A DNA stretch of 64,000 nt. Source: Escherichia coli 042 (GTDB lineage Bacteria; Pseudomonadota; Gammaproteobacteria; Enterobacterales; Enterobacteriaceae). A program made the position numbers and the translations under genes. This document shows, piece after piece, positions 3,384-24,235 of the stretch. Under the pieces are notes generated by a model, which had not been told where the DNA came from, ran no database searches, and was given only the letters and a program-made list of their open reading frames with translations. The number at the start of each line of letters is the position of its first letter. The stretch's first letter is position 1. The DNA is taken from the NCBI RefSeq assembly GCF_000027125.1, contig NC_017626.1; one strand, 5' to 3'.

Positions 3384-3746
3384 GGGGCTGATTCTGGATT
3401 CGACGGGATTTGCGAAACCCAAGGTGCATGCCGAGGGGCGGTTGGCCTCGTAAAAAGCCGCAAAAAATAGTCGCAAACGACGAAAACTACGCTTTAGCAG
3501 CTTAATAACCTGCTTAGAGCCCTCTCTCCCTAGCCTCCGCTCTTAGGACGGGGATCAAGAGAGGTCAAACCCAAAAGAGATCGCGTGGAAGCCCTGCCTG
3601 GGGTTGAAGCGTTAAAACTTAATCAGGCTAGTTTGTTAGTGGCGTGTCCGTCCGCAGCTGGCAAGCGAATGTAAAGACTGACTAAGCATGTAGTACCGAG
3701 GACGTAGGAATTTCGGACGCGGGTTCAACTCCCGCCAGCTCCACCA
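3384..3746 (+). ncRNA. ssrA: tmRNA (SsrA), 363 nt
   Basis: Starts GGGGCTGATTCTGGATTCGACGGG, contains tag reading frame gcaaacgacgaaaactacgctttagcagcttaa (ANDENYALAA*), ends GGGTTCAACTCCCGCCAGCTCCACCA. Confidence 0.97.
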
Positions 3747-10351: not shown

Positions 10352-11860
10352 ATGGCTATTTTTCATCTGGATTTTAAAATTGTGAAACGTTCTGAAGGCA
10401 GATCTTCCGTTGCGAAAGCTGCCTATCATGCTCGTACACGTATAACAGATGAAAGAACAGGTGATACCTATGATTATAGTCGCCGTACCGATTTATACGG
10501 ACATTTCATATTAGCACCAATTAATGCTCCAGAACATATCGTGAAAGACTCTACAGCATTGTGGAATGAAGTTGAAAGAGTTGAGCGCCAGAGCAATGGT
10601 CAAACATCCCGTTATTTCGATGTTGCCATACCTGCCGAGTTAAACAATGACGACAAGAAAAGACTTGTCCTTGAGTATTGTCAGAAAAATTTCGTTGATA
10701 AAGGCATGATTGCCGATATCGCTTTCCACGATCTTGATAGCGATAATCCTCATGCTCACGTTATGTTGACATTAAAAACCATAGGCCCTGAAGGTTTTGG
10801 TAAAAAAGAAAGAAGCTGGAACGACAGAAAAATGTCTGTTATATGGCGTGAATCATGGGCATCTATGGCTAACAGCTACCTTGCTGCCGCTGGCTCGTCA
10901 GAACGTATTGACCATCGTTCTCTTCAGGCCCAGCATGAAGAGGCATTAGAAAAAGCGGCGGTAGCTTTAGATAATGAAGAAAAAGCGCTATGGCTTGCTA
11001 AAGCCGCTGAAACAAACCGTCCTCCAATGAAGCGTATCCATAGTGCCAAATGGCGTAGTAAAGCAGCACAAGAGCAAAGAGCAGCAGAACAGGCTGTTCG
11101 TGATGCTGCCAAGCAGGAAGCGGTTGAAGTCTACAAGACTTTCAGCGAACTTGATCTTGAAATCGTCGTTGATGTCAGAAGCTTCACCGTGGCTGCTCTT
11201 GCTGAACCAGAAGAGATTGTATTACCAGAAACGCGCTCCGGCTCTTCTTCTCATGAAGCACAAAGTCCTGTATTGGTAGCGCCTATTCCTCATACTCATG
11301 TGCGTGGAGTTAAATCTTACCGCGATAAAGAAAAAGTGAGTAAAGTTGTCATTAATAATATATCAGAACCAAATGTTGCTGATGCTGACATAAACACTCT
11401 TTGGAAAACATCTCCATCTAAAACCAAAAATATGGCATCCAAAAGTACCGCTGAAAGTGTTAAAAGGAAACAGGCTAATCCGCGTCAGGATAATATCTTT
11501 AAACGCTTTACAACGCTTTTGATCGGTTTCTTCAAAGAGAAATTTATATGGGCTAAGAAGAAACCTGATCCTACCGAGATTGAACATGACAGGCATGTAG
11601 CAGAAAATTACGTCTTTGATGAAGTGCTGGGTGTCTATGTATCACGCGCTGACCATGAACAACGAGCCAGATTCAACGGTGATGATAAAGAGTTCTCTGG
11701 TTACAAGCCAACACCTGATGAGATTAAGCGTTTTCCAAGCCGTCTAGCTAATACAGCACAAACTGATAGAGAGCTCGACTACATGCCTTCGCTCGTGGCT
11801 GATAAGAAATCGTTAGCACCTAAATTGAAACCAAATGCTCCCTATAAAAATAGATTATAA
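10352..11860 (+). CDS. mobA: Relaxase, MobA/MobL (MOBQ) family
   Basis: N-terminus MAIFHLDFKIVKRSEGRSSVAKAAYHARTR and NPHAHVMLT (HxH) motif parallel RSF1010 MobA (MAIYHL..., NPHCHLMIS). Confidence 0.85.
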   Translation: MAIFHLDFKIVKRSEGRSSVAKAAYHARTRITDERTGDTYDYSRRTDLYGHFILAPINAPEHIVKDSTALWNEVERVERQSNGQTSRYFDVAIPAELNNDDKKRLVLEYCQKNFVDKGMIADIAFHDLDSDNPHAHVMLTLKTIGPEGFGKKERSWNDRKMSVIWRESWASMANSYLAAAGSSERIDHRSLQAQHEEALEKAAVALDNEEKALWLAKAAETNRPPMKRIHSAKWRSKAAQEQRAAEQAVRDAAKQEAVEVYKTFSELDLEIVVDVRSFTVAALAEPEEIVLPETRSGSSSHEAQSPVLVAPIPHTHVRGVKSYRDKEKVSKVVINNISEPNVADADINTLWKTSPSKTKNMASKSTAESVKRKQANPRQDNIFKRFTTLLIGFFKEKFIWAKKKPDPTEIEHDRHVAENYVFDEVLGVYVSRADHEQRARFNGDDKEFSGYKPTPDEIKRFPSRLANTAQTDRELDYMPSLVADKKSLAPKLKPNAPYKNRL

Positions 11861-13379: not shown

Positions 13380-14030
13380 TTACCAGCTATCATTATTTCG
13401 CTTTTCAATTGCATCACGATAACGCTGTTGTTCCACAACATCCAGATTTGGATCAAATAACACACTTGATCCTTTCACAGCAATATCGGCATCAATCTCT
13501 GATTGGGGAGCATAGGCCTTATAACCATTAGGCTGTGAAGTGGCTGTGCGGATATATGTCCCATAGTGTTTCCCATTCATAGAACAACCGATGTAAGCCA
13601 ACAGGCAGGCAAACAGGAAAAAGAATGTCCATACTGTATTATAGCCGTTAATCGTATATCCACTTCCATTCACATCTGAAAACACGCCATTAAACCTGAC
13701 CGCATAGACAATCAGGAACGATGAAAGGATAACGGTTCTGCTTTTACCAACAGTTAAATGTTTACGCACAAATTTCACTGTTGGTAGTAGAGTGACCATA
13801 AAAAGAGCGATAGCAACACATACCAGCCATATAGGAAACAGTCCATATTTTTGTGTAATGTTCTGCGATACCGTCACCAAGGACAGCACCAAGAAGGCGT
13901 TGAGCAGAAAAAGTCTGACCGCCATCCATACCTTCACGTTCTTTTGCGTCTTACGGAGAAACAGCATCGGAGTCAGTGATGGTATGTTCATCAGCAGACC
14001 GATGATAAGCACCCAATAGATAGAGTTCAT
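13380..14030 (-). CDS. Polytopic inner-membrane protein (216 aa), unknown function
   Basis: Several hydrophobic helices; last gene of a three-gene minus-strand operon. Confidence 0.6.
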   Translation of the reverse strand: MNSIYWVLIIGLLMNIPSLTPMLFLRKTQKNVKVWMAVRLFLLNAFLVLSLVTVSQNITQKYGLFPIWLVCVAIALFMVTLLPTVKFVRKHLTVGKSRTVILSSFLIVYAVRFNGVFSDVNGSGYTINGYNTVWTFFFLFACLLAYIGCSMNGKHYGTYIRTATSQPNGYKAYAPQSEIDADIAVKGSSVLFDPNLDVVEQQRYRDAIEKRNNDSW

Positions 14031-14046
14031 AGCGTTCTTCCTGTAA

Positions 14047-14601
14047 TTACCGGGCTTGCCAACCGTTATTGATTTTCACCAGAACAATTTTGGCTTCTTC
14101 TGGTTCAGACATCCCTTTCACGCCAGAGAAGGCATTTTTATCAACCCAGCCCGGCACGCCATCCAGTTTCCACGTATAGGTCACTTGCGTCATTTTAACG
14201 CCATTACCCTCACTCGGTTCAGTCCAGCTTTTAACCTCAGCTACGGCACGGTGACCAACACAGGCACCATCTTTACGATCCCAAAACTCAACCTCTTGGC
14301 CTTTGTCTGTTACTTCCAGAACATCTACGCTGCTAAAGCCGTTAGGTTGCTGCGAAACATCAAGCAGTCCCTGATTAGCCAGACCTTTCAAGATTTCATC
14401 ACTGGCACTGTATCCAGCAGAACGATAGCCATGGTTGACCTTAACCGGAAAACCTTTATTGAACGTAAAGTCATTGTCCTGAAGGGAGTAGCAGACCTTA
14501 GATTTTGATATATGCTCGTTTATCGCTTTCTCAAAGTCGCCTTTTTCACCGCAGCCTGATAACAACACGGCAAGTCCTGCAATGACTAAAAATTTACTCA
14601 T
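14047..14601 (-). CDS. Lipoprotein (184 aa), unknown function
   Basis: Signal peptide with lipobox LLSGC (MSKFLVIAGLAVLLSGC). Confidence 0.65.
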   Translation of the reverse strand: MSKFLVIAGLAVLLSGCGEKGDFEKAINEHISKSKVCYSLQDNDFTFNKGFPVKVNHGYRSAGYSASDEILKGLANQGLLDVSQQPNGFSSVDVLEVTDKGQEVEFWDRKDGACVGHRAVAEVKSWTEPSEGNGVKMTQVTYTWKLDGVPGWVDKNAFSGVKGMSEPEEAKIVLVKINNGWQAR

Positions 14602-14615
14602 GGTTCTTATTCCTT

Positions 14616-15194
14616 TTAATGATTGATAGTGCCGTTTCTCAGAACAACCAGACGAACTGGCATATCGGCATTGTTTACTGTGGCGAAGCCACGAACTTCG
14701 AAGTTGTTGACTGTTCCAGTGACACTGACTTTCTGGCCTTTCTTGTAAGTAAGAACCGCATCATCAATACCAGAGTAGTAATCCAGCCAGACCATCCCGC
14801 CGCAGTAGCTTGTATCGGCTGTTTTAAAGAGCAGATAATAATTAGGGGCTGATTTGGGCATTCCCGTCATCATATCGCTGGCACTTCTGCCCTTCGTAAC
14901 CTCAAGAACAGTGGCATTGGTGATAGCGATCCTTTTGCCAGTCCATTTTTTTTCTGCTGCCATCGCATTTTCTTCATAGTCTTTGCAGACAGCACCAAGG
15001 CCAGTAATGGACGTCGCTGGACCACTATCCTGACCGGAAGCTGAAACCCGCAGCGCTTTATCAACGGTGCTGTTCAATGATGCCAGTGAAGAGTTAATTG
15101 CCCCATTAACGCTATTCACGCCTTCGTTGAGTTGCTGGCAGCCAGAAAGAAACACCAGAGAGATCGCCAGTGGTAAGAAGTTATGTCCTTTCAT
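14616..15194 (-). CDS. Lipoprotein (192 aa), unknown function
   Basis: Signal peptide with lipobox FLSGC (MKGHNFLPLAISLVFLSGC); first gene of the operon. Confidence 0.65.
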   Translation of the reverse strand: MKGHNFLPLAISLVFLSGCQQLNEGVNSVNGAINSSLASLNSTVDKALRVSASGQDSGPATSITGLGAVCKDYEENAMAAEKKWTGKRIAITNATVLEVTKGRSASDMMTGMPKSAPNYYLLFKTADTSYCGGMVWLDYYSGIDDAVLTYKKGQKVSVTGTVNNFEVRGFATVNNADMPVRLVVLRNGTINH

Positions 15195-15317
15195 TTATTC
15201 CTCAAGGATTTAGTCAGATTCGTATACCCCAATCCCGGCGCACTGACCTATAGATCAGGAGTTATCGTCTAATCAATTGATAGAATTGAATTATTTTTAG
15301 TGTTCGTCACATCGTTT

Positions 15318-15460
15318 AAATCGATCGATATAAAACAAATGATAGACTCAGGCTATCATAGATAATATATCGATCGATAATATCAATTAAAAAACCGATC
15401 GATAAATCACTTTCAATCGTTAATGCCTATCAATATAAATTTATCGATCGATTTTACAGA
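15318..15460. promoter_or_regulatory. Four copies of the palindrome (A)TCGATCGAT(A), each with a Dam GATC site, in the divergent promoter region
   Basis: Copies near 15321, 15370, 15396 and 15444 with spacings about 49/26/48 bp; additional inverted repeat GATAG-N7-CTATC at 15341-15359. Confidence 0.6.
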
Positions 15461-15529
15461 TCATTTTGCTTGAGTATGTTGGCACTGGCGGCTATGCTGG
15501 GCTGAGATAAAGCAGTAAAACAGAGAGGG

Positions 15530-15985
15530 ATGAGCATGGAAAACAACAACGAGCGAAGCTCTATGGAAATCTTCGAAAAAGATCAAAAAATCGCTTTTGT
15601 TGACTCGTTCAGCGATGCTGCTTTGTCTTACGAATACGAACAGGCGGGCTTCACCATTAATTTAATGCAACGCTCGGTTCTTCTCTTTAACCATAATATA
15701 AAGAAAAACGTAACTGCCAAGCAGTTGCGTAAAAATAATATAAAGAATAACGTAATGTCTTCGACATTGCGTAAAAATATGAACAGCACATTTATATATT
15801 CATATAACAACATCAGGGAAATCAACTACTCGCTGCCTGATTGCAGATCCGATGATGCCGAGAACTGTATTATGATTGATGATGTATTAAATCCAGTCTG
15901 GACGTTCAGGGTTCCATCTCACGCACATTATATTTGCGAGCAATGGGTGGAAGTATTTAATAACCATATTTTCTTTGACCCATAA
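15530..15985 (+). CDS. Hypothetical protein (151 aa)
   Basis: ORF downstream of the GATC-palindrome region; low GC. Confidence 0.5.
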   Translation: MSMENNNERSSMEIFEKDQKIAFVDSFSDAALSYEYEQAGFTINLMQRSVLLFNHNIKKNVTAKQLRKNNIKNNVMSSTLRKNMNSTFIYSYNNIREINYSLPDCRSDDAENCIMIDDVLNPVWTFRVPSHAHYICEQWVEVFNNHIFFDP

Positions 15986-16110
15986 ACAAAGTATTAAGCA
16001 AAAGGAAAATAAATATCTGACTAATGATATTAATTAATAGAATTATTTGCTTTTTAGCAAATTAATGTTTAATTATATACACATAGAATAATTGATATCG
16101 AGGTATATTT

Positions 16111-16581
16111 ATGTCTGGGAAAAATCCTTTTTGGAATTATGATTATAATGCGGCGCAACGTAATAGAGAAATTGTAGACTCTTACCAACAGGCAAATGAG
16201 GCAAGGCTGGATTCTCAACAGGCGCAGTTTGAAGCGTCTATGGCTAATGACAGGGTTAGCAGAATACAGATGCAGTTGAATAACACAATCAATAGCCATA
16301 AGAAGGTTGTGGCTGATTATGAGCAACGTCTTGAAGAATATAAACAAAATTTCTTTCGTGTAGCTTTACATAAAAACATTCTCTTCAGAACGGTTCGCAG
16401 ACTTCAGGAGGAATGGCCGGATAAAAATGAATTCATCCTTGATGAAATGCAAAGACAAAGAATTTTGTGTAATCAGCAGGACTATAGAGAAAGATGGTGG
16501 AATGCCATAAAAGATAATAATCTTGCTGACGATTATCTTGAGTTTCCATTTCCTAATAGAGAGATAAAAAACAAACCATAA
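16111..16581 (+). CDS. Hypothetical protein (156 aa), charged and Gln/Glu-rich
   Basis: ORF with ATG start; no recognisable catalytic motif. Confidence 0.5.
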   Translation: MSGKNPFWNYDYNAAQRNREIVDSYQQANEARLDSQQAQFEASMANDRVSRIQMQLNNTINSHKKVVADYEQRLEEYKQNFFRVALHKNILFRTVRRLQEEWPDKNEFILDEMQRQRILCNQQDYRERWWNAIKDNNLADDYLEFPFPNREIKNKP

Positions 16582-16695
16582 TAAGTAATTAACTATTCGT
16601 TCATAACATTATATTTATTTTAATAAGACACTAACCTGCTGTGTCTCCTAAAAACACGCCTATACATCAACCATCCATTTTATGGAATACTCATC

Positions 16696-16974
16696 ATGAC
16701 AACTACTTTGCATCCAAATTACGTTGTTGTATCAAAGCTAATATCTAAGTTTGACATTACACATGATAGTAGAGATGAGAATATTAATATCTTGATTTCT
16801 GTCATTTATGACTTGGATAACGGCAATACAATCGAATACTACATTAATAATCAGGAAGAGGCCGAGAAAAAATGCATTGAGAAAAACAGATTTTCAAGGA
16901 AATTTAAAAACCGCATTGATAATATATCACCTGAAGAAATCCGCTCGGCTAAAGATAATCACAAACCCAAATAA
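16696..16974 (+). CDS. Hypothetical small protein (92 aa)
   Basis: ORF co-oriented with neighbours. Confidence 0.45.
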   Translation: MTTTLHPNYVVVSKLISKFDITHDSRDENINILISVIYDLDNGNTIEYYINNQEEAEKKCIEKNRFSRKFKNRIDNISPEEIRSAKDNHKPK

Positions 16975-17097
16975 TAAATTTGAACTCAGGATGGAACTAA
17001 TGTCTATACCGTATAATGTATTGATTTTGTGCACAGGAACGATTAAAACTATGATGTTATTGCTTGTATTCTTTACCACAAACATTAGGGAAATCGC

Positions 17098-17505
17098 ATG
17101 TCTGATGCTTTAAAGATCATCAACAATATTCGTACTCTCCGTGCTCAGGCTCGTGAACTGACACTCGAAACCTTGGAAGAGATGTTAGAAAAACTCACTA
17201 TCGTTGTAGAAGAACGTCGTGAAGAAGAGGCCTCATTTCTAAAACAGCAGGAAGAGAAACAGGCCAAGCTGGAAGCATTCCGTCAGAAGTTGTTGGAAGA
17301 TGGCATAGACCCGGCAGAGTTGCTTTCAACTGTTAGCCCATCTTCTTCCAAGACAGGAGCGAAACGCGCCCCACGTCCAGCTAAGTATAAATATGTTGAT
17401 ACCGATGGTTCGGAAAAGACGTGGACAGGTCAGGGCCGAACTCCTCGTGCTATCGCTGCTGCGCTCGAAGCCGGTAAGACACTGGAAGATTTCGAGATCA
17501 AGTAA
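17098..17505 (+). CDS. H-NS family nucleoid-associated protein, island-encoded paralogue
   Basis: 135 aa; ...[23 protein letters not shown]...[25 protein letters not shown] parallels the StpA encoded at 50350-50754 in this window. Confidence 0.85.
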
Positions 17506-17517
17506 TCTTCATACCAT

Positions 17518-18066
17518 ATGTCTACCAAATCCGCTCATTTTTCTTGGGCGGGTTTGTTGAACCAACCTACAGGGATTAACATGCCAATAAAAGAGTTCTT
17601 AATTATGAAATCAAAAGCCTTTATTAACTTCATGCGCACTGAACTAAAAAACACATTTACAACTTCTCCTTGCGAAAATAAATTAAGAAAGGCTATTTTT
17701 ATTTTTTCTTTATTAAATGCCTTAAATATCATAGGTTATTACATCCTCACATATAGTATGCAAATCCTGTTCCTGTTGCCTATTATTTGGGGAGGGTTAT
17801 TAGCACACGGGACTTACAAACGCTATGGAGATTTGCTTAGATCTGGTTCTGATTGTGCTCTTTTTCTGGTGGCTACTATTACATCAGCATATCTCGTCAT
17901 TAACACAGCAAGTGATGATGTCGATTTTTTTGAAAAGCATATGATAAATGGATTAGGTTTTTTGATTACATATGTTTTTGCTGTAGCTGCATCCGTTCGT
18001 TTTTATATCAGTGCAATAGATTTATATAATAGCTTTATTTCTTTTAAAAAATCAAAAGAAAAATGA
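17518..18066 (+). CDS. Membrane protein (182 aa), unknown function
   Basis: Hydrophobic helices; immediately downstream of the H-NS paralogue. Confidence 0.5.
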   Translation: MSTKSAHFSWAGLLNQPTGINMPIKEFLIMKSKAFINFMRTELKNTFTTSPCENKLRKAIFIFSLLNALNIIGYYILTYSMQILFLLPIIWGGLLAHGTYKRYGDLLRSGSDCALFLVATITSAYLVINTASDDVDFFEKHMINGLGFLITYVFAVAASVRFYISAIDLYNSFISFKKSKEK

Positions 18067-19948: not shown

Positions 19949-22609
19949 TCACATTCCATCATTACCTTCTTTTGATGATGAACTACCACCGGAAGATCCA
20001 CTACCGCTCCCTTTCTCTGGAGCCTTAAAGCTTTCAATTGGTGAAGCTTGGGCCTGTAAACTTACAGGCAGCAACGGTCTGTTATGTTCACCAAACGATA
20101 CCGCTCTGTTAGCAGCCTTTTGAGCTACATTCATATAACCTGCTGCGCCTGCTGTATCACCAATAGCATCTGCTGCCTCAGCTGCATGGTAAGCCGAGTT
20201 AGCACTTTCAAGAGACTGATATTCATCCTGCTGATCAAGTGGGCCAGCATTACTCATATGAGTTCTGAATGCAGATCCCGTATCATTGGCTTTATTAGCC
20301 GCCAGTGCTTTCCCCTGTTGAGCCTGTTGCTGTTGTTGAAGCTCACGTTGCTGTTCACGGTCTTTGTTAATTTGCGCATTCCTGATCTGATTACCCATCG
20401 CATTTGAGGTATGGGAAACCTGATCCAACACGGTTTTGGTAAACATAGCACCTTCAACACCTTTTGATGCCGACTGTGCGTAACCCGACATGCTCTGACC
20501 ACCATGAACACCAAGCCACTTCATAATTTCATCAGGGATGATGTGAATCAGTGAAAGTGATTTCTTCACTACCGTGAACATCATTGCAATATAAACAGCA
20601 ATGAGAGCCAGTGACTCGATGATACCTATCCCGGCATTGGCTGACATCATGCCAAAAGCGCCGGAGAATGTTTCGTTGACGATCCCACCAAGGATAGGGA
20701 GCATCGTATAGGCTGCTATTAATCCTGTTATCATTAGCGCTGGTCGCATGGTTAACGATAAAACCAGACCATAACCAGCGCCACCACGACCCACTACGCC
20801 ATCACCATCTGGATGTAAATGTGTTATTACCCATAATGGTGCTGCGACCATTGCTTCAAGGCACAGGATCATCCAGCCTACGCAAACACCAAACCACATG
20901 ACGTAAGGCAGCATAGGAATGACGACGGCTAAAGTATCGCCAGCTATCCATAAAGGGATAACCAGTGGCATAACAATCCCCATAGCGCCAAATGCACCCG
21001 ATACCCAGCTTGCAGTCGCTGATGTCCATGCGCCAAGACCTGCCCCAACAACAGCAGAACTCCCTAATAACGTCCAGCCAGCGGCACTGATCGTATCCCC
21101 AAGCCCTTTAACAGCTAATAACGGGTTTATTGCCTGTAAATTGGCAGCGGTTGTGTCCGTCGAGAACGAGACGATTTTCCCTTGTTTTCTTCCATTGATA
21201 ACGCTGGAACTGAGAAAACCCGCCATTGCACCAGAAATGCTCTTATTGGCTTCACTTTGAAGAGAAGAAACTATTTTTCCAGCATCATCTGTTTTAGGGC
21301 CTACACCACTTTTACCACTGGTATTGGCTTCCGTTCGGTTTTGCGCATCAATACCATTCGCATATCTTGAAGCTGTCGTTGATTTCGCCATATCTTGAGC
21401 CACTTTTGCCATAATCGCGTTCAGGCTGTTATCGAATATATCTCCGTATTCCATTGTCGCTTGCCCGGCTACAGGAAGATTATGAGCTGCTCCATTAATC
21501 GCATCCTGCACACGGATCAGTTTCATACTCCATGCGCCAGCCATAAACCATCCGTCTTTCTGGACATTCTCTTTGAAATCATCCCACTGGTCGCCAGTGG
21601 AGAAAACTGTTCGTACTGCAGTATCAATAATGGATACATATGAGGCCGTTGCGCTGTTTATTCCGGTCTGAATATCAATATTATTATCGGCCACATACTG
21701 TTCAGCCAGCGTTTTCATACTATTATCAAGGCCGATAAATGCGGCATTGTGTGCCTCAATAACATCTGAAATATTCGTCTTTATATCCTGTGGCATATAA
21801 GCCATATACATGCCGCCAGCAGCAATGGTAGCCTGAGCTTTAGCCTGTTCGTCATAAGAAGCTTTGGCCTTCGGGTCTGTAAGCGTGATGCTTCCACATG
21901 CAGCCTTGGATACCAGTAAATTTTTATTCATATCATTACCGGCATTGCTGGCTCCATAACTGTATGTGTATAAATAGGCACCTTTCTCCGGTGTCATTTC
22001 AAACGCAGGCGTGACGTGCGGGAAGGGATCGGCTGCTGCTGATTTCTTCCATAATTCTCCCGCCTTTAACATACAGACGTTATTGATAAAGGCGGTTTTC
22101 GCTATGCGATCAAGCTCCTGATAAGATGCAGATGTGGTAATAACAGCCCCATCTGAGGGGTTGGATGCATAGGTATTCCAGACGGTATCTGCCAGACCGA
22201 CTCCCTGATTAATCATCCACAGCACCATAACCTGAGCGGCACAGAAACCACCTGCTGCCGGGAGTATCATTGCCGTGCCTAATGCAGTTCTTACGGGCAA
22301 CCACATGGAAGACCATTTCTTACCCAGCATTTCTCCGTCATGTGCCGTTGACATGGTTCCGGCAATCAGTGTGTAGGCAGCTAAAATGCCACCAACCAGT
22401 AAAACAGCGCTGTTAAGGATTGTCATTGTGCTGGCTAAGGGACTTTCCGCTAAATTGTCCGGGAATAAGATATCCAGAAACCACAGCTTTGATTTGTCTG
22501 TCTCCGGGACGGTAAATAAATCTGCGGCATAAGCTGACTGAGTTAATAACAGGCAAGCTAATATTACTAATAATATCGATACTTCTTTTTTCTTTATATT
22601 TATCATCAT
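19949..22609 (-). CDS. Large polytopic membrane protein (886 aa) with signal peptide and Gln-rich / Gly-Ser-rich C-terminus; possibly mating-pore related
   Basis: Signal peptide ...LLTQSAYAADL; many hydrophobic segments; C-terminal ELQQQQQAQQ and GSGSGSSGGSSSS low-complexity runs. Confidence 0.6.
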   Translation of the reverse strand: MMINIKKKEVSILLVILACLLLTQSAYAADLFTVPETDKSKLWFLDILFPDNLAESPLASTMTILNSAVLLVGGILAAYTLIAGTMSTAHDGEMLGKKWSSMWLPVRTALGTAMILPAAGGFCAAQVMVLWMINQGVGLADTVWNTYASNPSDGAVITTSASYQELDRIAKTAFINNVCMLKAGELWKKSAAADPFPHVTPAFEMTPEKGAYLYTYSYGASNAGNDMNKNLLVSKAACGSITLTDPKAKASYDEQAKAQATIAAGGMYMAYMPQDIKTNISDVIEAHNAAFIGLDNSMKTLAEQYVADNNIDIQTGINSATASYVSIIDTAVRTVFSTGDQWDDFKENVQKDGWFMAGAWSMKLIRVQDAINGAAHNLPVAGQATMEYGDIFDNSLNAIMAKVAQDMAKSTTASRYANGIDAQNRTEANTSGKSGVGPKTDDAGKIVSSLQSEANKSISGAMAGFLSSSVINGRKQGKIVSFSTDTTAANLQAINPLLAVKGLGDTISAAGWTLLGSSAVVGAGLGAWTSATASWVSGAFGAMGIVMPLVIPLWIAGDTLAVVIPMLPYVMWFGVCVGWMILCLEAMVAAPLWVITHLHPDGDGVVGRGGAGYGLVLSLTMRPALMITGLIAAYTMLPILGGIVNETFSGAFGMMSANAGIGIIESLALIAVYIAMMFTVVKKSLSLIHIIPDEIMKWLGVHGGQSMSGYAQSASKGVEGAMFTKTVLDQVSHTSNAMGNQIRNAQINKDREQQRELQQQQQAQQGKALAANKANDTGSAFRTHMSNAGPLDQQDEYQSLESANSAYHAAEAADAIGDTAGAAGYMNVAQKAANRAVSFGEHNRPLLPVSLQAQASPIESFKAPEKGSGSGSSGGSSSSKEGNDGM

Positions 22610-23470: not shown

Positions 23471-24235
23471 CTAAATATTATCCCAATCTAACGGTTCTTC
23501 TGGTGGCACAAGACTTGTGTTCTCTACAGAAGGGATTTCATTTATACTTTCACTCTTCACTAACCCTTGAGACTTTTTAGCCTGCAATCTTGCGATTAAC
23601 AAATCTATCTCATCTTGGTTATTAACTTCTTGTATAACTGCTTCAATTGACCTGTTTTTATCTTTAAGTATGCTATTGCCACCGCCATTGACGACTATGC
23701 TTTCGGGTTGTTCTTCCATTGCTTCTTTCTTTTTTATAATCTCTGATACAAAGCGAGCACGATCACCATTGAAGACAATAGCAGGGTTTATGAAATACCA
23801 GTTTTTCTCATTGGTTTTAGCAATAATACGTTTTTCGATGAGTTCTTTGATACCTCTGTAAAAGATAGATTCAGACAAAACAAAGTGATCTATCTTTTCC
23901 GCAAGAGACATTGCCTTTTTACAGCTCAGGTAGAAATGATCTTTGCCTATCGCATCCTGATATATTCGTAAAAATATGAAAAACACTTTGTATGCTGTTT
24001 TCGTGAGATCAAAATATGCTTTTATCTGAGAGGTATAGAGTTTAATGAACTCTTCTTTATCGACCTCTTGTGTATGCACGATATTGGCGAAGTAGCTTTT
24101 ACCTGTATCTTTCTTTTCGATAAGTTCTGTGCCTCTTGAAACGGTCAGATTTTTCTTTCGTGTTTCAATCTTTAGCTCTGTCTCAAAGCAAAAAGGATTT
24201 AACCCTAAATCTAAGTCAACGTCTATTTCATTCAT
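23471..24235 (-). CDS. Winged-helix DNA-binding protein, candidate replication initiator or regulator (254 aa)
   Basis: Central ...SIFYRGIKELIEKRIIAKT...YFINPAIVFNGDR block is winged-helix-like; paralogous layout to the 25693 gene; iteron-like array 170-250 bp upstream. Confidence 0.5.
   Translation of the reverse strand: MNEIDVDLDLGLNPFCFETELKIETRKKNLTVSRGTELIEKKDTGKSYFANIVHTQEVDKEEFIKLYTSQIKAYFDLTKTAYKVFFIFLRIYQDAIGKDHFYLSCKKAMSLAEKIDHFVLSESIFYRGIKELIEKRIIAKTNEKNWYFINPAIVFNGDRARFVSEIIKKKEAMEEQPESIVVNGGGNSILKDKNRSIEAVIQEVNNQDEIDLLIARLQAKKSQGLVKSESINEIPSVENTSLVPPEEPLDWDNI

What the first reader, a model, noticed from the sequence alone, without database searches (positions are those of the whole stretch)
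15318..15460. Cluster of four ATCGATCGAT palindromes (Dam GATC sites) in a divergent promoter region
Four near-identical palindromes, each centred on GATC, are spaced about 49/26/48 bp between the envelope operon and the oppositely oriented 15530 gene. Clustered GATC sites within repeated protein-binding-like motifs are the hallmark of Dam-methylation-dependent epigenetic switches (pap, agn43 type) and of SeqA-bound regions. This may be a phase-variable ON/OFF control of the flanking accessory genes.
Basis: partly seen in the sequence, partly recalled or inferred. Interest (0 to 1): 0.6.

Follow-up and report, generated by a model that had tools for sequence, protein, structure and literature searches.

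The report
OxyR/Dam epigenetic switch in island
The four GATC palindromes are real and belong to a 200-bp control region that closely matches the known OxyR/Dam-methylation on-off switches of Salmonella (opvAB, gtr) and E. coli (agn43), here sitting between a lipoprotein operon and cargo genes of a mobile genomic island carried by about one E. coli genome in eight.

Summary
ATCGATCGAT occurs at 15320, 15369 and 15443, and ACCGATCGAT at 15394, nowhere else in 64 kb. A fifth GATC lies at 15459.

The palindromes are not the functional unit. They are the GATC-bearing ends of OxyR-type half-sites (ATAGnTnnnAnCTAT). Six such half-sites lie at centres 15287, 15318, 15349, 15380, 15423 and 15454, spaced 31/31/31/43/31 bp.

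GATC spacing (49/25/49) and half-site spacing reproduce the Salmonella opvAB switch (50/23/50; 32/41/32), which aligns collinearly.

In 22 diverged copies from Enterobacterales (about 75% identity), GATC1-4 are kept in 21-22 of 22. The central half-site matches the OxyR consensus 9.7/10, conserved at consensus positions and free at the 'n' positions.

The window carries a ROD21-like island at ssrA. The switch core is found in 641 of 5426 complete E. coli genomes, including the Nissle 1917 tcpC island.

The constant neighbour is the leftward SEN1982-family lipoprotein operon; right-hand genes vary.

Best reading: host OxyR and Dam compete here and give heritable ON/OFF states. This is a new member of a known kind. 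OxyR binding, methylation states and phase variation remain untested.

The parts
15270..15466 (.). Conserved switch core (about 197 bp). It is the only part of the intergenic region alignable across genera.
   Evidence: Distant blastn hits in 564 E. coli genomes and 4 plasmid-collection records cover only window 15270-15465.
15320..15329 (.). Palindrome 1 (ATCGATCGAT), containing GATC1 (15323-26).
   Evidence: GATC1 is conserved in 21 of 22 copies.
15369..15378 (.). Palindrome 2 (ATCGATCGAT), containing GATC2 (15372-75).
   Evidence: GATC2 is conserved in 21 of 22 copies; the exception is a decayed O111 island. TATATCGATCGATAA is identical to the agn43 GATC-III context.
15394..15403 (.). Palindrome 3 (ACCGATCGAT), containing GATC3 (15397-15400).
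   Evidence: GATC3 is conserved in 22 of 22 copies. opvAB has aACGATCGAT at the same place.
15443..15452 (.). Palindrome 4 (ATCGATCGAT), containing GATC4 (15446-49).
   Evidence: GATC4 is conserved in 22 of 22 copies.
15459..15462 (.). GATC5, 9 nt after GATC4. The GATC-N9-GATC arrangement is the same as in the gtr half-sites A and C and in agn43 GATC II-III.
   Evidence: Conserved in 18 of 22 copies. It is the only GATC-N9-GATC in the window.
15280..15294 (.). Half-site H0, ATAGAATTGAATTAT (8/10 to the OxyR consensus). It overlaps the candidate leftward -10 and spacer.
   Evidence: mean 7.68/10 in 22 copies, nearly invariant. It is among the six best offsets of an unbiased scan.
15311..15325 (.). 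Half-site H1, ATCGTTTAAATCGAT (8/10), ending in GATC1. It is 14 of 15 identical to the agn43 half-site ATCGTTTATATCGAT.
   Evidence: (mean 7.95/10).
15342..15356 (.). Half-site H2, ATAGACTCAGGCTAT (8/10 here), with no GATC. It is the counterpart of opvAB OBS-A and gtr OxyR(B).
   Evidence: mean 9.73/10 in 22 copies, with information content 1.87 bits at consensus positions and 0.50 at 'n' positions. It is the only ATAG-N7-CTAT in the window.
15373..15387 (.). Half-site H3, ATCGATAATATCAAT (8/10), starting inside GATC2. It is the counterpart of opvAB OBS-B (ATCGATTTTAATTAT, 8/10).
   Evidence: mean 7.86/10.
15416..15430 (.). Half-site H4, ATCGTTAATGCCTAT (8/10), with no GATC. It is the counterpart of opvAB OBS-C.
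   Evidence: mean 8.82/10, with information content 1.77 against 0.57.
15447..15461 (.). Half-site H5, ATCGATTTTACAGAT (7/10), bracketed by GATC4 and GATC5. It is the counterpart of opvAB OBS-D (7/10) and has the form of gtr OxyR(C).
   Evidence: (mean 6.77/10).
15470..15498 (+). Candidate rightward sigma-70 promoter: -35 TTGAGT (15470-75), 17-nt spacer, -10 TATGCT (15493-98). An alternative is TTTACA 15453-58 / TATGTT 15475-80.
   Evidence: Both hexamers are invariant in 6 variants of this island. The same arrangement is present in L025 and L040, and TTGCTA-17-TAGAGT/TAAAGT occupies the same place in 9 other copies. The alternative comes from the consensus scan. This is inference; no transcription start data.
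15282..15310 (-). Candidate leftward promoter: -35 GTGACG (reverse complement of 15305-10), 17-nt spacer, -10 AATTCT (reverse complement of 15282-87). It has the geometry GATC1-N12-(-35)-N17-(-10).
   Evidence: The same geometry occurs at the mapped opvAB promoter (GATC4-N12-GTGAAT-N17-TAAAAT) and in 16 single-unit relatives. ATGACG and AATnCT are invariant in the class-1 copies. The -10 is weak. This is inference.
13380..15194 (-). Leftward operon: a 192-aa lipoprotein (14616-15194), a 184-aa SEN1982-family lipoprotein (14047-14601) and a 216-aa membrane protein (13380-14030). A terminator-like hairpin follows at 13348-13328.
   Evidence: (48% identity to the Nissle SEN1982-family protein). 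A lipoprotein gene of these families adjoins the switch on this side in every class-1 locus with enough flank.
15530..18066 (+). Rightward genes: a 151-aa distant DUF4755 homologue (15530-15985), 156-aa and 92-aa proteins, an H-NS paralogue (17098-17505) and a 182-aa membrane protein. No terminator-like site separates them.
   Evidence: Gene content on this side varies among relatives.

Best explanation
The region is an OxyR/Dam epigenetic phase-variation switch of the opvAB/gtr/agn43 kind, built into a ROD21-like (EARL-type) genomic island integrated at ssrA.

Host OxyR, in its reduced tetrameric form, can occupy alternative pairs of 15-bp half-sites spaced 31 bp apart. Three of the six half-sites (H1, H3, H5) carry GATC sites. 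Dam methylation of those GATCs blocks OxyR, and bound OxyR blocks Dam. After replication the two proteins compete, and each cell lineage inherits one of two methylation/occupancy patterns. By analogy with opvAB, the patterns would be GATC1+3 free with GATC2+4 methylated, or the reverse.

One pattern places OxyR next to a weak promoter and activates it. The other leaves the promoter inactive or occluded. This would give ON and OFF subpopulations.

The most constant target is the leftward lipoprotein operon (192-aa lipoprotein, SEN1982-family lipoprotein, membrane protein). A conserved rightward promoter just after GATC5 suggests that the right-hand cargo genes may be switched as well.

Shown here: the sequence architecture, its selective conservation, its sequence relatedness to opvAB, and its genomic context. 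Inferred: OxyR binding, methylation patterns, promoter positions, and which occupancy state is ON.
For: 1. Architecture. GATC centres at 15324.5, 15373.5, 15398.5 and 15447.5 give spacings of 49/25/49. opvAB has GATCs at -172.5, -122.5, -99.5 and -49.5, i.e. 50/23/50. Half-site centres here are spaced 31/43/31 against 32/41/32 in opvAB. The consensus matches of 8, 8, 8 and 7 out of 10 compare with 10, 8, 10 and 7 in opvAB.

2. Sequence identity to proven OxyR/Dam sites. H1 is 14 of 15 identical to the agn43 half-site, and TATATCGATCGATAA is shared with agn43. H5 has the GATC-N9-GATC form of gtr half-sites A and C.

3. Phylogenetic footprint in 22 copies at about 75% identity. GATC1-4 are kept in 21-22 of 22 and GATC5 in 18 of 22, while a control GATC just outside the core (15253) is kept in 1 of 22. 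H2 matches the OxyR consensus 9.73/10 and H4 8.82/10. Information content is 1.82 bits at consensus positions against 0.54 at the 'n' positions (permutation p about 1e-5). An unbiased scan of every offset returns exactly the six half-sites as the six best.

4. Within this island lineage, substitutions fall in 'n' positions and spacers only.

5. opvAB (L023) aligns collinearly from GATC1 to GATC4. A profile of the class-1 core finds opvAB (E 9e-13). It also finds the independently fetched P22 gtr region (E 6e-6) and the K-12 agn43 region (E 3e-4), each at the experimentally defined place.

6. A 21-base architecture pattern found 44 loci among 100,044 species genomes. Forty are in Enterobacterales records. 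Two are short contigs binned in a Flavobacterium MAG whose sequences match the enterobacterial copies, probably contaminants. The last two, in Pseudanabaena, are coding-region matches, in line with my back-of-envelope chance estimate of about 2.

7. The annotation of the near-identical island shows no LysR-type regulator or Dam-like methylase, so host OxyR and Dam are the candidates.

8. The noncoding core (75% DNA identity) is far better conserved than the adjacent DUF4755 gene (26% amino-acid identity).
Against: - There is no experimental datum for this locus: no methylome, OxyR binding or expression-heterogeneity data were found.
- The window's own H2 and H4 are only 8/10.
- GATC3 does not lie in a good half-site (about 5/10), as is also true in opvAB.
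- Promoter positions are only predicted. The leftward -10 is weak (AATTCT). The rightward promoter places H5 at about -51 rather than the -43 seen in opvAB.
- Most comparison loci were retrieved with a pattern derived from this element. This biases the conservation of part of the H4-GATC4 segment. The other segments, and the blastn-retrieved copies, are not affected.
Confidence: 0.75

Rival explanations
1. The half-sites are bound not by host OxyR but by another winged-helix or LysR-like protein, for example the island's own RepL-like wHTH protein (SEN1990 family). Dam methylation could still modulate that binding. The switch would then be island-autonomous, or the island protein would modulate OxyR-type switches.
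For: A RepL-like gene lies 1.4-8.5 kb from most class-1 switches that have enough flank. In S. Enteritidis, deleting SEN1990 significantly lowered only oafB, a gene of the gtr operon, which is a known OxyR/Dam phase-variable operon. SEN1990 was modelled as a wHTH protein with LysR-like similarity.
Against: The conserved positions match the OxyR consensus specifically (ATAG, T6, A10, CTAT; 9.7/10 at H2), and the spacing is that of reduced OxyR. Homologous opvAB and gtr regions work with OxyR in strains that lack such islands. SEN1990 homologues are not ubiquitous in these islands. The oafB effect could simply reflect a clonal ON/OFF bias.
Confidence: 0.1
2. It is an ordinary OxyR- or other regulator-controlled divergent promoter without heritable bistability. 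The GATCs would be fully methylated or irrelevant, and expression would be graded, for example in response to oxidative stress.
For: OxyR half-sites alone define many non-switching promoters. The window copy's half-sites are imperfect (7-8/10).
Against: Near-absolute conservation of four GATCs placed at the ends of half-sites across about 75%-identical copies is not needed for plain OxyR control. The 31-32-bp spacing is that used by reduced OxyR in all three known switches, which do not depend on OxyR's oxidation state. The alternative overlapping registers are the hallmark of gtr and opvAB.
Confidence: 0.08
3. The GATC cluster serves SeqA sequestration, replication or transfer (an origin-like element of the island) rather than transcription.
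For: GATC pairs 13 and 25 bp apart can bind SeqA. The region is AT-rich (34-38% GC), and the island encodes RepL-like and MobQ proteins. SeqA is an ancillary factor at opvAB.
Against: This does not explain the ATAG-N7-CTAT elements, which lack GATC yet are the best-conserved OxyR-like sites. oriT is expected next to mobQ, which lies 3.4 kb away. The element always abuts the start of a lipoprotein operon.
Confidence: 0.04
4. It is a pap-type (Lrp/PapI) methylation switch, as the first reader also suggested.
For: Some relatives have CGATCTTTTAT at GATC4, which resembles the pap GATC context as I recall it.
Against: The window copy has no GATCTTTT. GATC spacings of 49/25/49/13 bp are not the roughly 102 bp of pap (from memory). 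No papI/papB-like genes flank the region. The CGATCTTTT context is not conserved across copies.
Confidence: 0.02

Closest known systems
opvAB regulatory region of Salmonella enterica (Cota et al. 2012, 2015; PMC3350482, PMC4856963)
   Same: Four GATCs with 50/23/50 spacing (here 49/25/49). Four OxyR half-sites, two between GATC pairs without a GATC and two starting inside GATC2 and GATC4. Spacing is 32/41/32 (here 31/43/31), and the B and D sites match 8/10 and 7/10 in both. The two regions align collinearly, with an nhmmer E-value of 9e-13. Even the left edge (GTCACAT...ACGATCAA...ATGATAG) is shared.
   Different: The window has a fifth GATC, which makes the D site gtr-like, and two further half-sites (H1, H0) on the left next to a divergent promoter candidate. 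The flanking genes are unrelated to opvA/opvB. The A and C sites are 8/10 here against 10/10. The host is E. coli, on a mobile island. opvAB has been reported as absent outside Salmonella (PMC12902445); that statement concerns the operon, not the regulatory module.
gtr (O-antigen glucosylation) switch of phage P22 and Salmonella (Broadbent et al. 2010; PMC2909390)
   Same: A triad of OxyR half-sites 32 bp apart, the outer two carrying GATCs (GATC-N9-GATC) and the middle one without. Alternative occupancy AB (ON) or BC (OFF). H1-H2-H3 here form such a triad at 31/31 bp, and H5 has the two-GATC form. The class-1 profile hits the P22 region.
   Different: gtr has one triad and four GATCs in two pairs. 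Here there are two units in tandem, and the GATC-bearing sites of the left unit carry a single GATC each.
agn43 (flu) switch of E. coli
   Same: The same ATCGATCGAT / ATCGTTTAnATCGAT sequence blocks. OxyR and Dam compete there.
   Different: agn43 has three GATCs within one OxyR site that overlaps the promoter, and OxyR acts only as a repressor there (from memory). There is no tandem unit and no GATC-free consensus half-sites.
ROD21 / EARL (Enterobacteriaceae-associated ROD21-like) genomic islands, including the tcpC island of E. coli Nissle 1917
   Same: The context is the same: MobQ relaxase, TraD, SEN1982-family lipoprotein, DUF4755, SEN1984-like lipoprotein, RepL-like gene and H-NS paralogue.
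   Different: This island sits at ssrA and has an extra 192-aa lipoprotein gene between the switch and the SEN1982 homologue. I found no description of the switch in the ROD21 paper read here.

Membership tests
OxyR/Dam phase-variation switches (agn43, gtr, opvAB) | Several GATC sites lying inside or at the ends of OxyR half-sites | tested here: met
   GATC1 lies in H1, GATC2 in H3, and GATC4 and GATC5 in H5. They are conserved in 18-22 of 22 copies.
OxyR/Dam phase-variation switches (agn43, gtr, opvAB) | Half-sites matching ATAGnTnnnAnCTAT, with selective conservation of the ten consensus positions | tested here: met
   Matches are 7-8/10 in the window. Family means are 9.73 (H2), 8.82 (H4) and 6.8-8.0 for the others. 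Information content is 1.85 bits against 0.98 at 'n' positions, p about 1e-5.
OxyR/Dam phase-variation switches (agn43, gtr, opvAB) | Half-site spacing of about 32 bp (reduced OxyR), with alternative overlapping registers | tested here: met
   Centres 15287, 15318, 15349, 15380, 15423 and 15454 give spacings of 31/31/31/43/31. gtr has 32/32 and opvAB 32/41/32.
OxyR/Dam phase-variation switches (agn43, gtr, opvAB) | The host has both Dam and OxyR | tested here: met
   The window is E. coli chromosome. Of the 44 loci retrieved with the architecture pattern, 40 are Enterobacterales records, 2 are probable contaminant contigs in a Flavobacterium MAG, and 2 are chance matches in Pseudanabaena coding sequence. 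That E. coli carries dam and oxyR is established knowledge; they were not looked up in this genome.
OxyR/Dam phase-variation switches (agn43, gtr, opvAB) | OxyR binds the region, methylation blocks that binding, and bound OxyR blocks Dam | not testable with these tools
   Needs EMSA or footprinting with and without Dam methylation, and in vivo methylation mapping.
OxyR/Dam phase-variation switches (agn43, gtr, opvAB) | Heritable, reversible ON/OFF expression that depends on dam and oxyR | not testable with these tools
   Needs reporter fusions and single-cell analysis. No published data were found.
opvAB-type architecture specifically | Four GATCs in a symmetric 46/19/46-nt arrangement, with four OxyR half-sites: A and C between the GATCs, B and D overlapping GATC2 and GATC4 | tested here: met
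   The arrangement here is 45/21/45 nt. H2, H3, H4 and H5 occupy the same relative places, and the alignment is collinear.
opvAB-type architecture specifically | Controls opvA/opvB (O-antigen chain-length modulators) | tested here: not met
   The flanking genes are lipoprotein, membrane-protein and DUF4755 genes, with no OpvB/Wzz-like protein. The element is therefore a relative of the regulatory module, not of the operon.
pap-type Lrp/PapI/Dam switch | Two GATCs about 102 bp apart in CGATCTTTT contexts within Lrp site triplets, with papI/papB-like regulators adjacent | tested here: not met
   There is no GATCTTTT in the window copy, the spacings are 49/25/49/13, and no such genes flank the region. 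The defining features are recalled from memory.
SeqA-bound GATC cluster | Two or more GATCs within about 31 bp | tested here: met
   GATC4-5 are 13 bp apart and GATC2-3 are 25 bp apart. This feature is trivial and does not explain the conserved GATC-free half-sites. The 31-bp criterion is recalled from memory.

The most novel reading that the evidence does not exclude
The module may be a bidirectional epigenetic toggle with six half-sites, ancestral to or sharing ancestry with the opvAB switch, and carried as standard equipment by ROD21-like islands across Enterobacterales.

Alternative OxyR registers would switch the leftward lipoprotein operon (H0-H1 occluding, H1-H2 activating, H2-H3 idle) and the rightward cargo, here including an H-NS paralogue, in a coordinated or antiphase way. 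Carriage of the island would then create host subpopulations with different surfaces and different silencing states.

The island's RepL-like wHTH protein might additionally cross-talk with host OxyR/Dam switches such as gtr.
Probability: 0.2. Interest if true: 0.75.

Novelty: new member of a known kind. Interest (0 to 1): 0.6.

Why it matters
OxyR/Dam switches are textbook examples of bacterial epigenetic inheritance, but only a few loci are known (agn43, gtr, opvAB).

This finding suggests that the opvAB-type module is not a Salmonella oddity. It appears to be a conserved, mobile regulatory cassette of ROD21-like islands. It is present in about 12% of complete E. coli genomes, including the tcpC island of Nissle 1917, and in Salmonella, Klebsiella, Yersinia, Pectobacterium and other genera.

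It predicts phase-variable expression of envelope lipoproteins. According to a study cited in the ROD21 paper, a Salmonella Enteritidis strain lacking the ROD21 homologue SEN1982 colonised mouse organs less well. It possibly also predicts phase-variable expression of island cargo.

It gives a plausible evolutionary source for the horizontally acquired opvAB control region. All of this is directly testable with existing opvAB and gtr tools.

Tried and rejected
- **Palindrome as operator.** I considered the 10-bp palindrome as the operator of an island-encoded regulator. Rejected, because the palindrome itself is not conserved in relatives.
- **Related DNA in phages.** A search found nothing relevant.
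- **Function of flanking genes.** NCBIfam, PADLOC and Pfam gave no significant family apart from H-NS. An AlphaFold model of the SEN1982-family lipoprotein (pLDDT 80) had no significant PDB match, only weak NTF2/VirB8-like resemblance.
- **Literature.** I searched for methylome or phase-variation data on ROD21/EARL/tcpC islands, SEN1982 and the ATCGATCGAT+OxyR combination. No description of this switch was found in the held library, which lacks most subscription journals.
- **Single-unit relatives.** I first read them as gtr operons driving rightward genes. ORF inspection showed that they drive leftward zinc-ribbon and lipoprotein genes downstream of a relaxase.
- **Full conjugative element.** I first assumed a full ICE. 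The annotation of the near-identical strain shows an island of about 30 kb with only a DotA/TraY remnant.
- **Promoter assignment.** The consensus scan is weak: it is not enriched over shuffles.
Full report
**1. Observation**

The sequence between the minus-strand gene that starts at 15194 and the plus-strand gene at 15530 contains ATCGATCGAT at 15320, 15369 and 15443, and ACCGATCGAT at 15394. No further copies with up to one mismatch occur in the 64 kb.

The number of matches is unremarkable for the window as a whole: 24 of 100 shuffles reach 4. Their concentration is not. All four CGATCGAT cores lie within 133 bp (Poisson about 1e-9), and the stretch is the densest GATC cluster of the window.

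- two tandem 74-bp units;
- each unit is a roughly 59-bp dyad, ATCGATCGAT-N10-TGATAG-N7-CTATCA-N10-ATCGATCGAT;
- a fifth GATC lies at 15459, 9 nt after the fourth.

**2. What the sequence resembles**

The ATAG-N7-CTAT and ATCG-N7-CGAT blocks fit the OxyR dimer half-site ATAGnTnnnAnCTAT. Six such elements occur:

| Half-site | Coordinates | Match to consensus |
|---|---|---|
| H0 | 15280-94 | 8/10 |
| H1 | 15311-25 | 8/10 |
| H2 | 15342-56 | 8/10 |
| H3 | 15373-87 | 8/10 |
| H4 | 15416-30 | 8/10 |
| H5 | 15447-61 | 7/10 |

Centre-to-centre spacing is 31/31/31/43/31 bp. GATC1 ends H1, GATC2 begins H3, and GATC4 and GATC5 bracket H5.

I fetched or reconstructed the three experimentally characterised OxyR/Dam switches for direct comparison.

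- **agn43 (K-12).** It reads ...ATCGATCGtttatATCGATCGATaagc. Its half-site ATCGTTTATATCGAT is 14 of 15 identical to H1, and TATATCGATCGATAA is shared with site 2.
- **gtr (P22).** It has GATCggtaacaacGATC / ATAGATAAAAACTAT / GATCgcttgtatcGATC at 32-bp spacing. OxyR bound at AB activates, OxyR bound at BC represses, and methylation abolishes binding.
- **opvAB.** Its four GATCs are centred at -172.5, -122.5, -99.5 and -49.5 (50/23/50). Its four half-sites lie at -148, -116, -75 and -43, matching 10, 8, 10 and 7 of 10. From the published mutagenic oligonucleotides, OBS-B is ATCGATTTTAATTAT and OBS-D is ATCGATATAACCAGT.

The window's 49/25/49 GATC spacing, its 31/43/31 half-site spacing for H2-H5, and its 8/10 and 7/10 matches for H3 and H5 reproduce the opvAB layout almost exactly.

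**3. Relatives and context**

The window is E. coli chromosome carrying an island of about 30 kb inserted at ssrA (tmRNA 3384-3746). The island holds an integrase, an ABC-three-component defence system, a TraD pseudogene, a MobQ relaxase, two H-NS paralogues, a RepL-like gene and a DotA/TraY remnant.

Sensitive blastn finds the intergenic region in 641 of 5426 complete E. coli genomes. Of these, 77 carry this island at 90-99% identity. The other 564 match at 72-78% identity, and only over window 15270-15465.

In Nissle 1917 the matching copy lies in the tcpC island, between a SEN1982-family lipoprotein gene and a DUF4755 gene. This is the gene order of Salmonella Enteritidis ROD21 and the 'EARL' islands.

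The window's 184-aa lipoprotein is 48% identical to the Nissle SEN1982-family protein. The 151-aa protein is only 26% identical to the Nissle DUF4755 protein. The noncoding core is therefore much better conserved than the neighbouring coding sequence.

A scan of 100,044 species genomes used a 21-base pattern designed to fit the window, the Nissle copy and opvAB alike. It returned 44 loci:
- 40 in Enterobacterales records;
- 2 on short contigs of a Flavobacterium MAG that look like enterobacterial contaminants;
- 2 in Pseudanabaena coding sequence, which are the chance matches; my back-of-envelope expectation was about 2.

The loci fall into three groups: full double-unit copies like the window ('class 1'; Pectobacterium, Pluralibacter, Hafnia, Yersinia, Klebsiella, Citrobacter and others), single-unit copies ('class 2'), and opvAB itself (S. 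arizonae, with GATC1 as GATT, as published in PMC12902445).

A Salmonella enterica contig, fetched independently through the lipoprotein, carries an intact class-1 switch.

**4. Phylogenetic footprint**

I aligned 22 class-1 copies.

- GATC1, 2, 3 and 4 are kept in 21, 21, 22 and 22 of 22 copies, and GATC5 in 18. A GATC just outside the core (15253) is kept in 1 of 22.
- H2 matches the OxyR consensus 9.73/10 on average and H4 8.82/10.
- In these two sites the ten consensus positions carry 1.82 bits and the five 'n' positions 0.54 bits (permutation p about 1e-5).
- Scanning every offset of the alignment for the OxyR consensus returns exactly H2, H4, H1, H3, H0 and H5 as the six best, against a median of 2.9/10.
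- The 10-bp palindrome is not conserved. Relatives have AACGATCAAA, ACCGATCAAT and ATCGATCTTT.
- Among six variants of this island (90-99% identity), substitutions cluster in the 'n' positions of H2 and H4 and in spacers, while all GATCs are invariant. The same 'structured variability' has been described for opvAB.

opvAB aligns collinearly with class 1 from the left edge (GTCACAT...ACGATCAA...ATGATAG) to GATC4.

An nhmmer profile of the class-1 core hits opvAB at E 9e-13. It also hits the independently fetched P22 gtr region (21058-21155, E 6e-6) and the K-12 agn43 region (503-556, E 3e-4), each at the experimentally defined site.

One caveat applies. Loci L006-L049 were selected with a pattern covering H4 through GATC4, so conservation of those 21 bases is partly circular. 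The other elements, and the blastn-derived copies, are free of this bias.

**5. Which genes are controlled**

In every class-1 locus with enough flank, the gene next to the switch on the left and diverging from it is a lipoprotein gene. It belongs either to the 192-aa family or to the SEN1982 family, and is followed by a 91-aa protein or the 216-aa membrane protein. The right side varies: DUF4755, a SEN1984/BamE-like lipoprotein, RepL, or nothing nearby.

*Leftward promoter candidate.*
- Class-2 modules lie downstream of a relaxase gene. They drive leftward genes for a zinc-ribbon membrane protein and BamE-like lipoproteins.
- Their geometry is GATC-N12-(-35 TTTACT/TTGCTT)-N17-(-10 GAAAAT).
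- This is the geometry of the mapped opvAB promoter, GATC4-N12-GTGAAT-N17-TAAAAT.
- The left side of class 1 has it too: GATC1-N12-ATGACG (GTGACG in the window)-N17-AATnCT, all invariant.
- H0 overlaps this candidate -10 and spacer.

*Rightward promoter candidate.*
- A promoter-like TTGAGT-17-TATGCT starts 7 nt after GATC5.
- It is invariant in the island lineage and replaced at the same place by TTGCTA-17-TAGAGT/TAAAGT in other copies.
- No terminator-like site separates the five right-hand genes, which include an H-NS paralogue. A hairpin at 13348-13328 closes the left operon.

Both directions are therefore candidates, and the left operon is the constant partner. Promoter positions are inference.

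**6. Mechanism (inferred by analogy with experimentally characterised relatives)**

- Reduced OxyR tetramers bind pairs of half-sites 31-32 bp apart.
- Methylated GATCs in H1, H3 and H5 exclude OxyR, and bound OxyR excludes Dam.
- After replication the competition re-establishes one of two patterns. In opvAB, OFF has GATC1/3 free and ON has GATC2/4 free.
- Occupancy next to the -35 activates. Occupancy elsewhere, or over the promoter, does not.
- The island annotation shows no LysR-type regulator or Dam homologue, so the host proteins are the likely actors.

**7. Rivals**

- An island wHTH protein (RepL-like, SEN1990 family) might bind or modulate the sites. Its deletion in S. Enteritidis lowered only oafB, in the OxyR/Dam-controlled gtr operon, and that operon's gtrA and gtrB non-significantly. 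However, the footprint is OxyR-specific, and opvAB and gtr function without such islands.
- Plain OxyR regulation without bistability does not explain the conserved GATCs.
- A SeqA or origin role does not explain the GATC-free consensus half-sites.
- A pap-type switch fails on spacing, sequence context and accessory genes.

**8. Novelty**

I found no description of this switch in ROD21/EARL/tcpC-island papers or in methylome studies within the searchable library. That library is incomplete.

The element is a new member of the OxyR/Dam switch family and a close relative of the opvAB control region. It has extra features: a fifth GATC, two additional half-sites, and a divergent promoter arrangement.

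Its wide distribution on mobile islands, and the existence of a single-unit form beside relaxase genes, suggest a mobile regulatory cassette. The functions of the switched lipoproteins remain unknown.

Noticed in passing
L006, L009, L014, L015, L017 (about 2020-2140), L019-L021, L024, L026, L028-L030, L035, L037, L038: A single-unit version of the module was found in many Enterobacterales. Its layout is GATC-N9-GATC half-site, then a perfect ATAG..CTAT half-site, then a GATC half-site, then -35/-10. It lies directly downstream of a relaxase gene and faces an operon for a 91-aa zinc-ribbon membrane protein and BamE-like lipoproteins. It looks like another family of predicted OxyR/Dam-switched envelope genes, one I found no description of, on mobilisable elements.
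   Followed up: partly
window about 23747-24199 (minus strand), and the RepL-like genes in L004, L008, L044, L046, L050: A RepL-like wHTH gene (SEN1990 family) accompanies most class-1 switches. According to PMC10655114, deleting SEN1990 in S. Enteritidis significantly lowered only oafB, a gene of the OxyR/Dam phase-variable gtr operon. This could be crosstalk with such switches, or a clonal ON/OFF artefact.
   Followed up: partly
window 3384-3746 and about 3900-33500: The tmRNA gene ssrA is followed by an integrase and an island of about 30 kb. The island carries ABC-three-component defence genes, a TraD pseudogene, MobQ (10352-11860), two H-NS paralogues, a DotA/TraY remnant (19949-22609), and PIN-domain and adenylate/guanylate cyclase genes. 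It is a ROD21-like island at an ssrA site rather than an Asn-tRNA site.
   Followed up: partly
window 14047-14601 (minus strand): The SEN1982-family lipoprotein is widely mis-named 'DNA-directed RNA polymerase subunit beta' in public records. An AlphaFold model (pLDDT 80) has no significant solved-structure match, only weak NTF2/VirB8-like hints.
   Followed up: yes
L005 6095-6105 (E. coli O111:NM): In a decayed copy of the island (truncated MobA, IS insertion, pseudogenes), GATC2 has become GATT. This is consistent with relaxed selection once the island is degenerate.
   Followed up: no
window 38261-38275: There is a lone OxyR-like half-site, ATAGTTATCATCGAT, near a tRNA-Met gene (37995-38070). 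It is probably a chance match.
   Followed up: no
window about 450, 45943 and 61617: These are the next densest GATC clusters (4 GATC in 150 bp). They lie outside the island and were not examined.
   Followed up: no
window 24000-46000: This stretch matches E. coli genomes at only 93-95% identity (ypjA autotransporter, gab genes and others), whereas the island switch is 99.4% identical to strain 4/1-1. The source strain may be a divergent Escherichia lineage, or the region may be mosaic.
   Followed up: no
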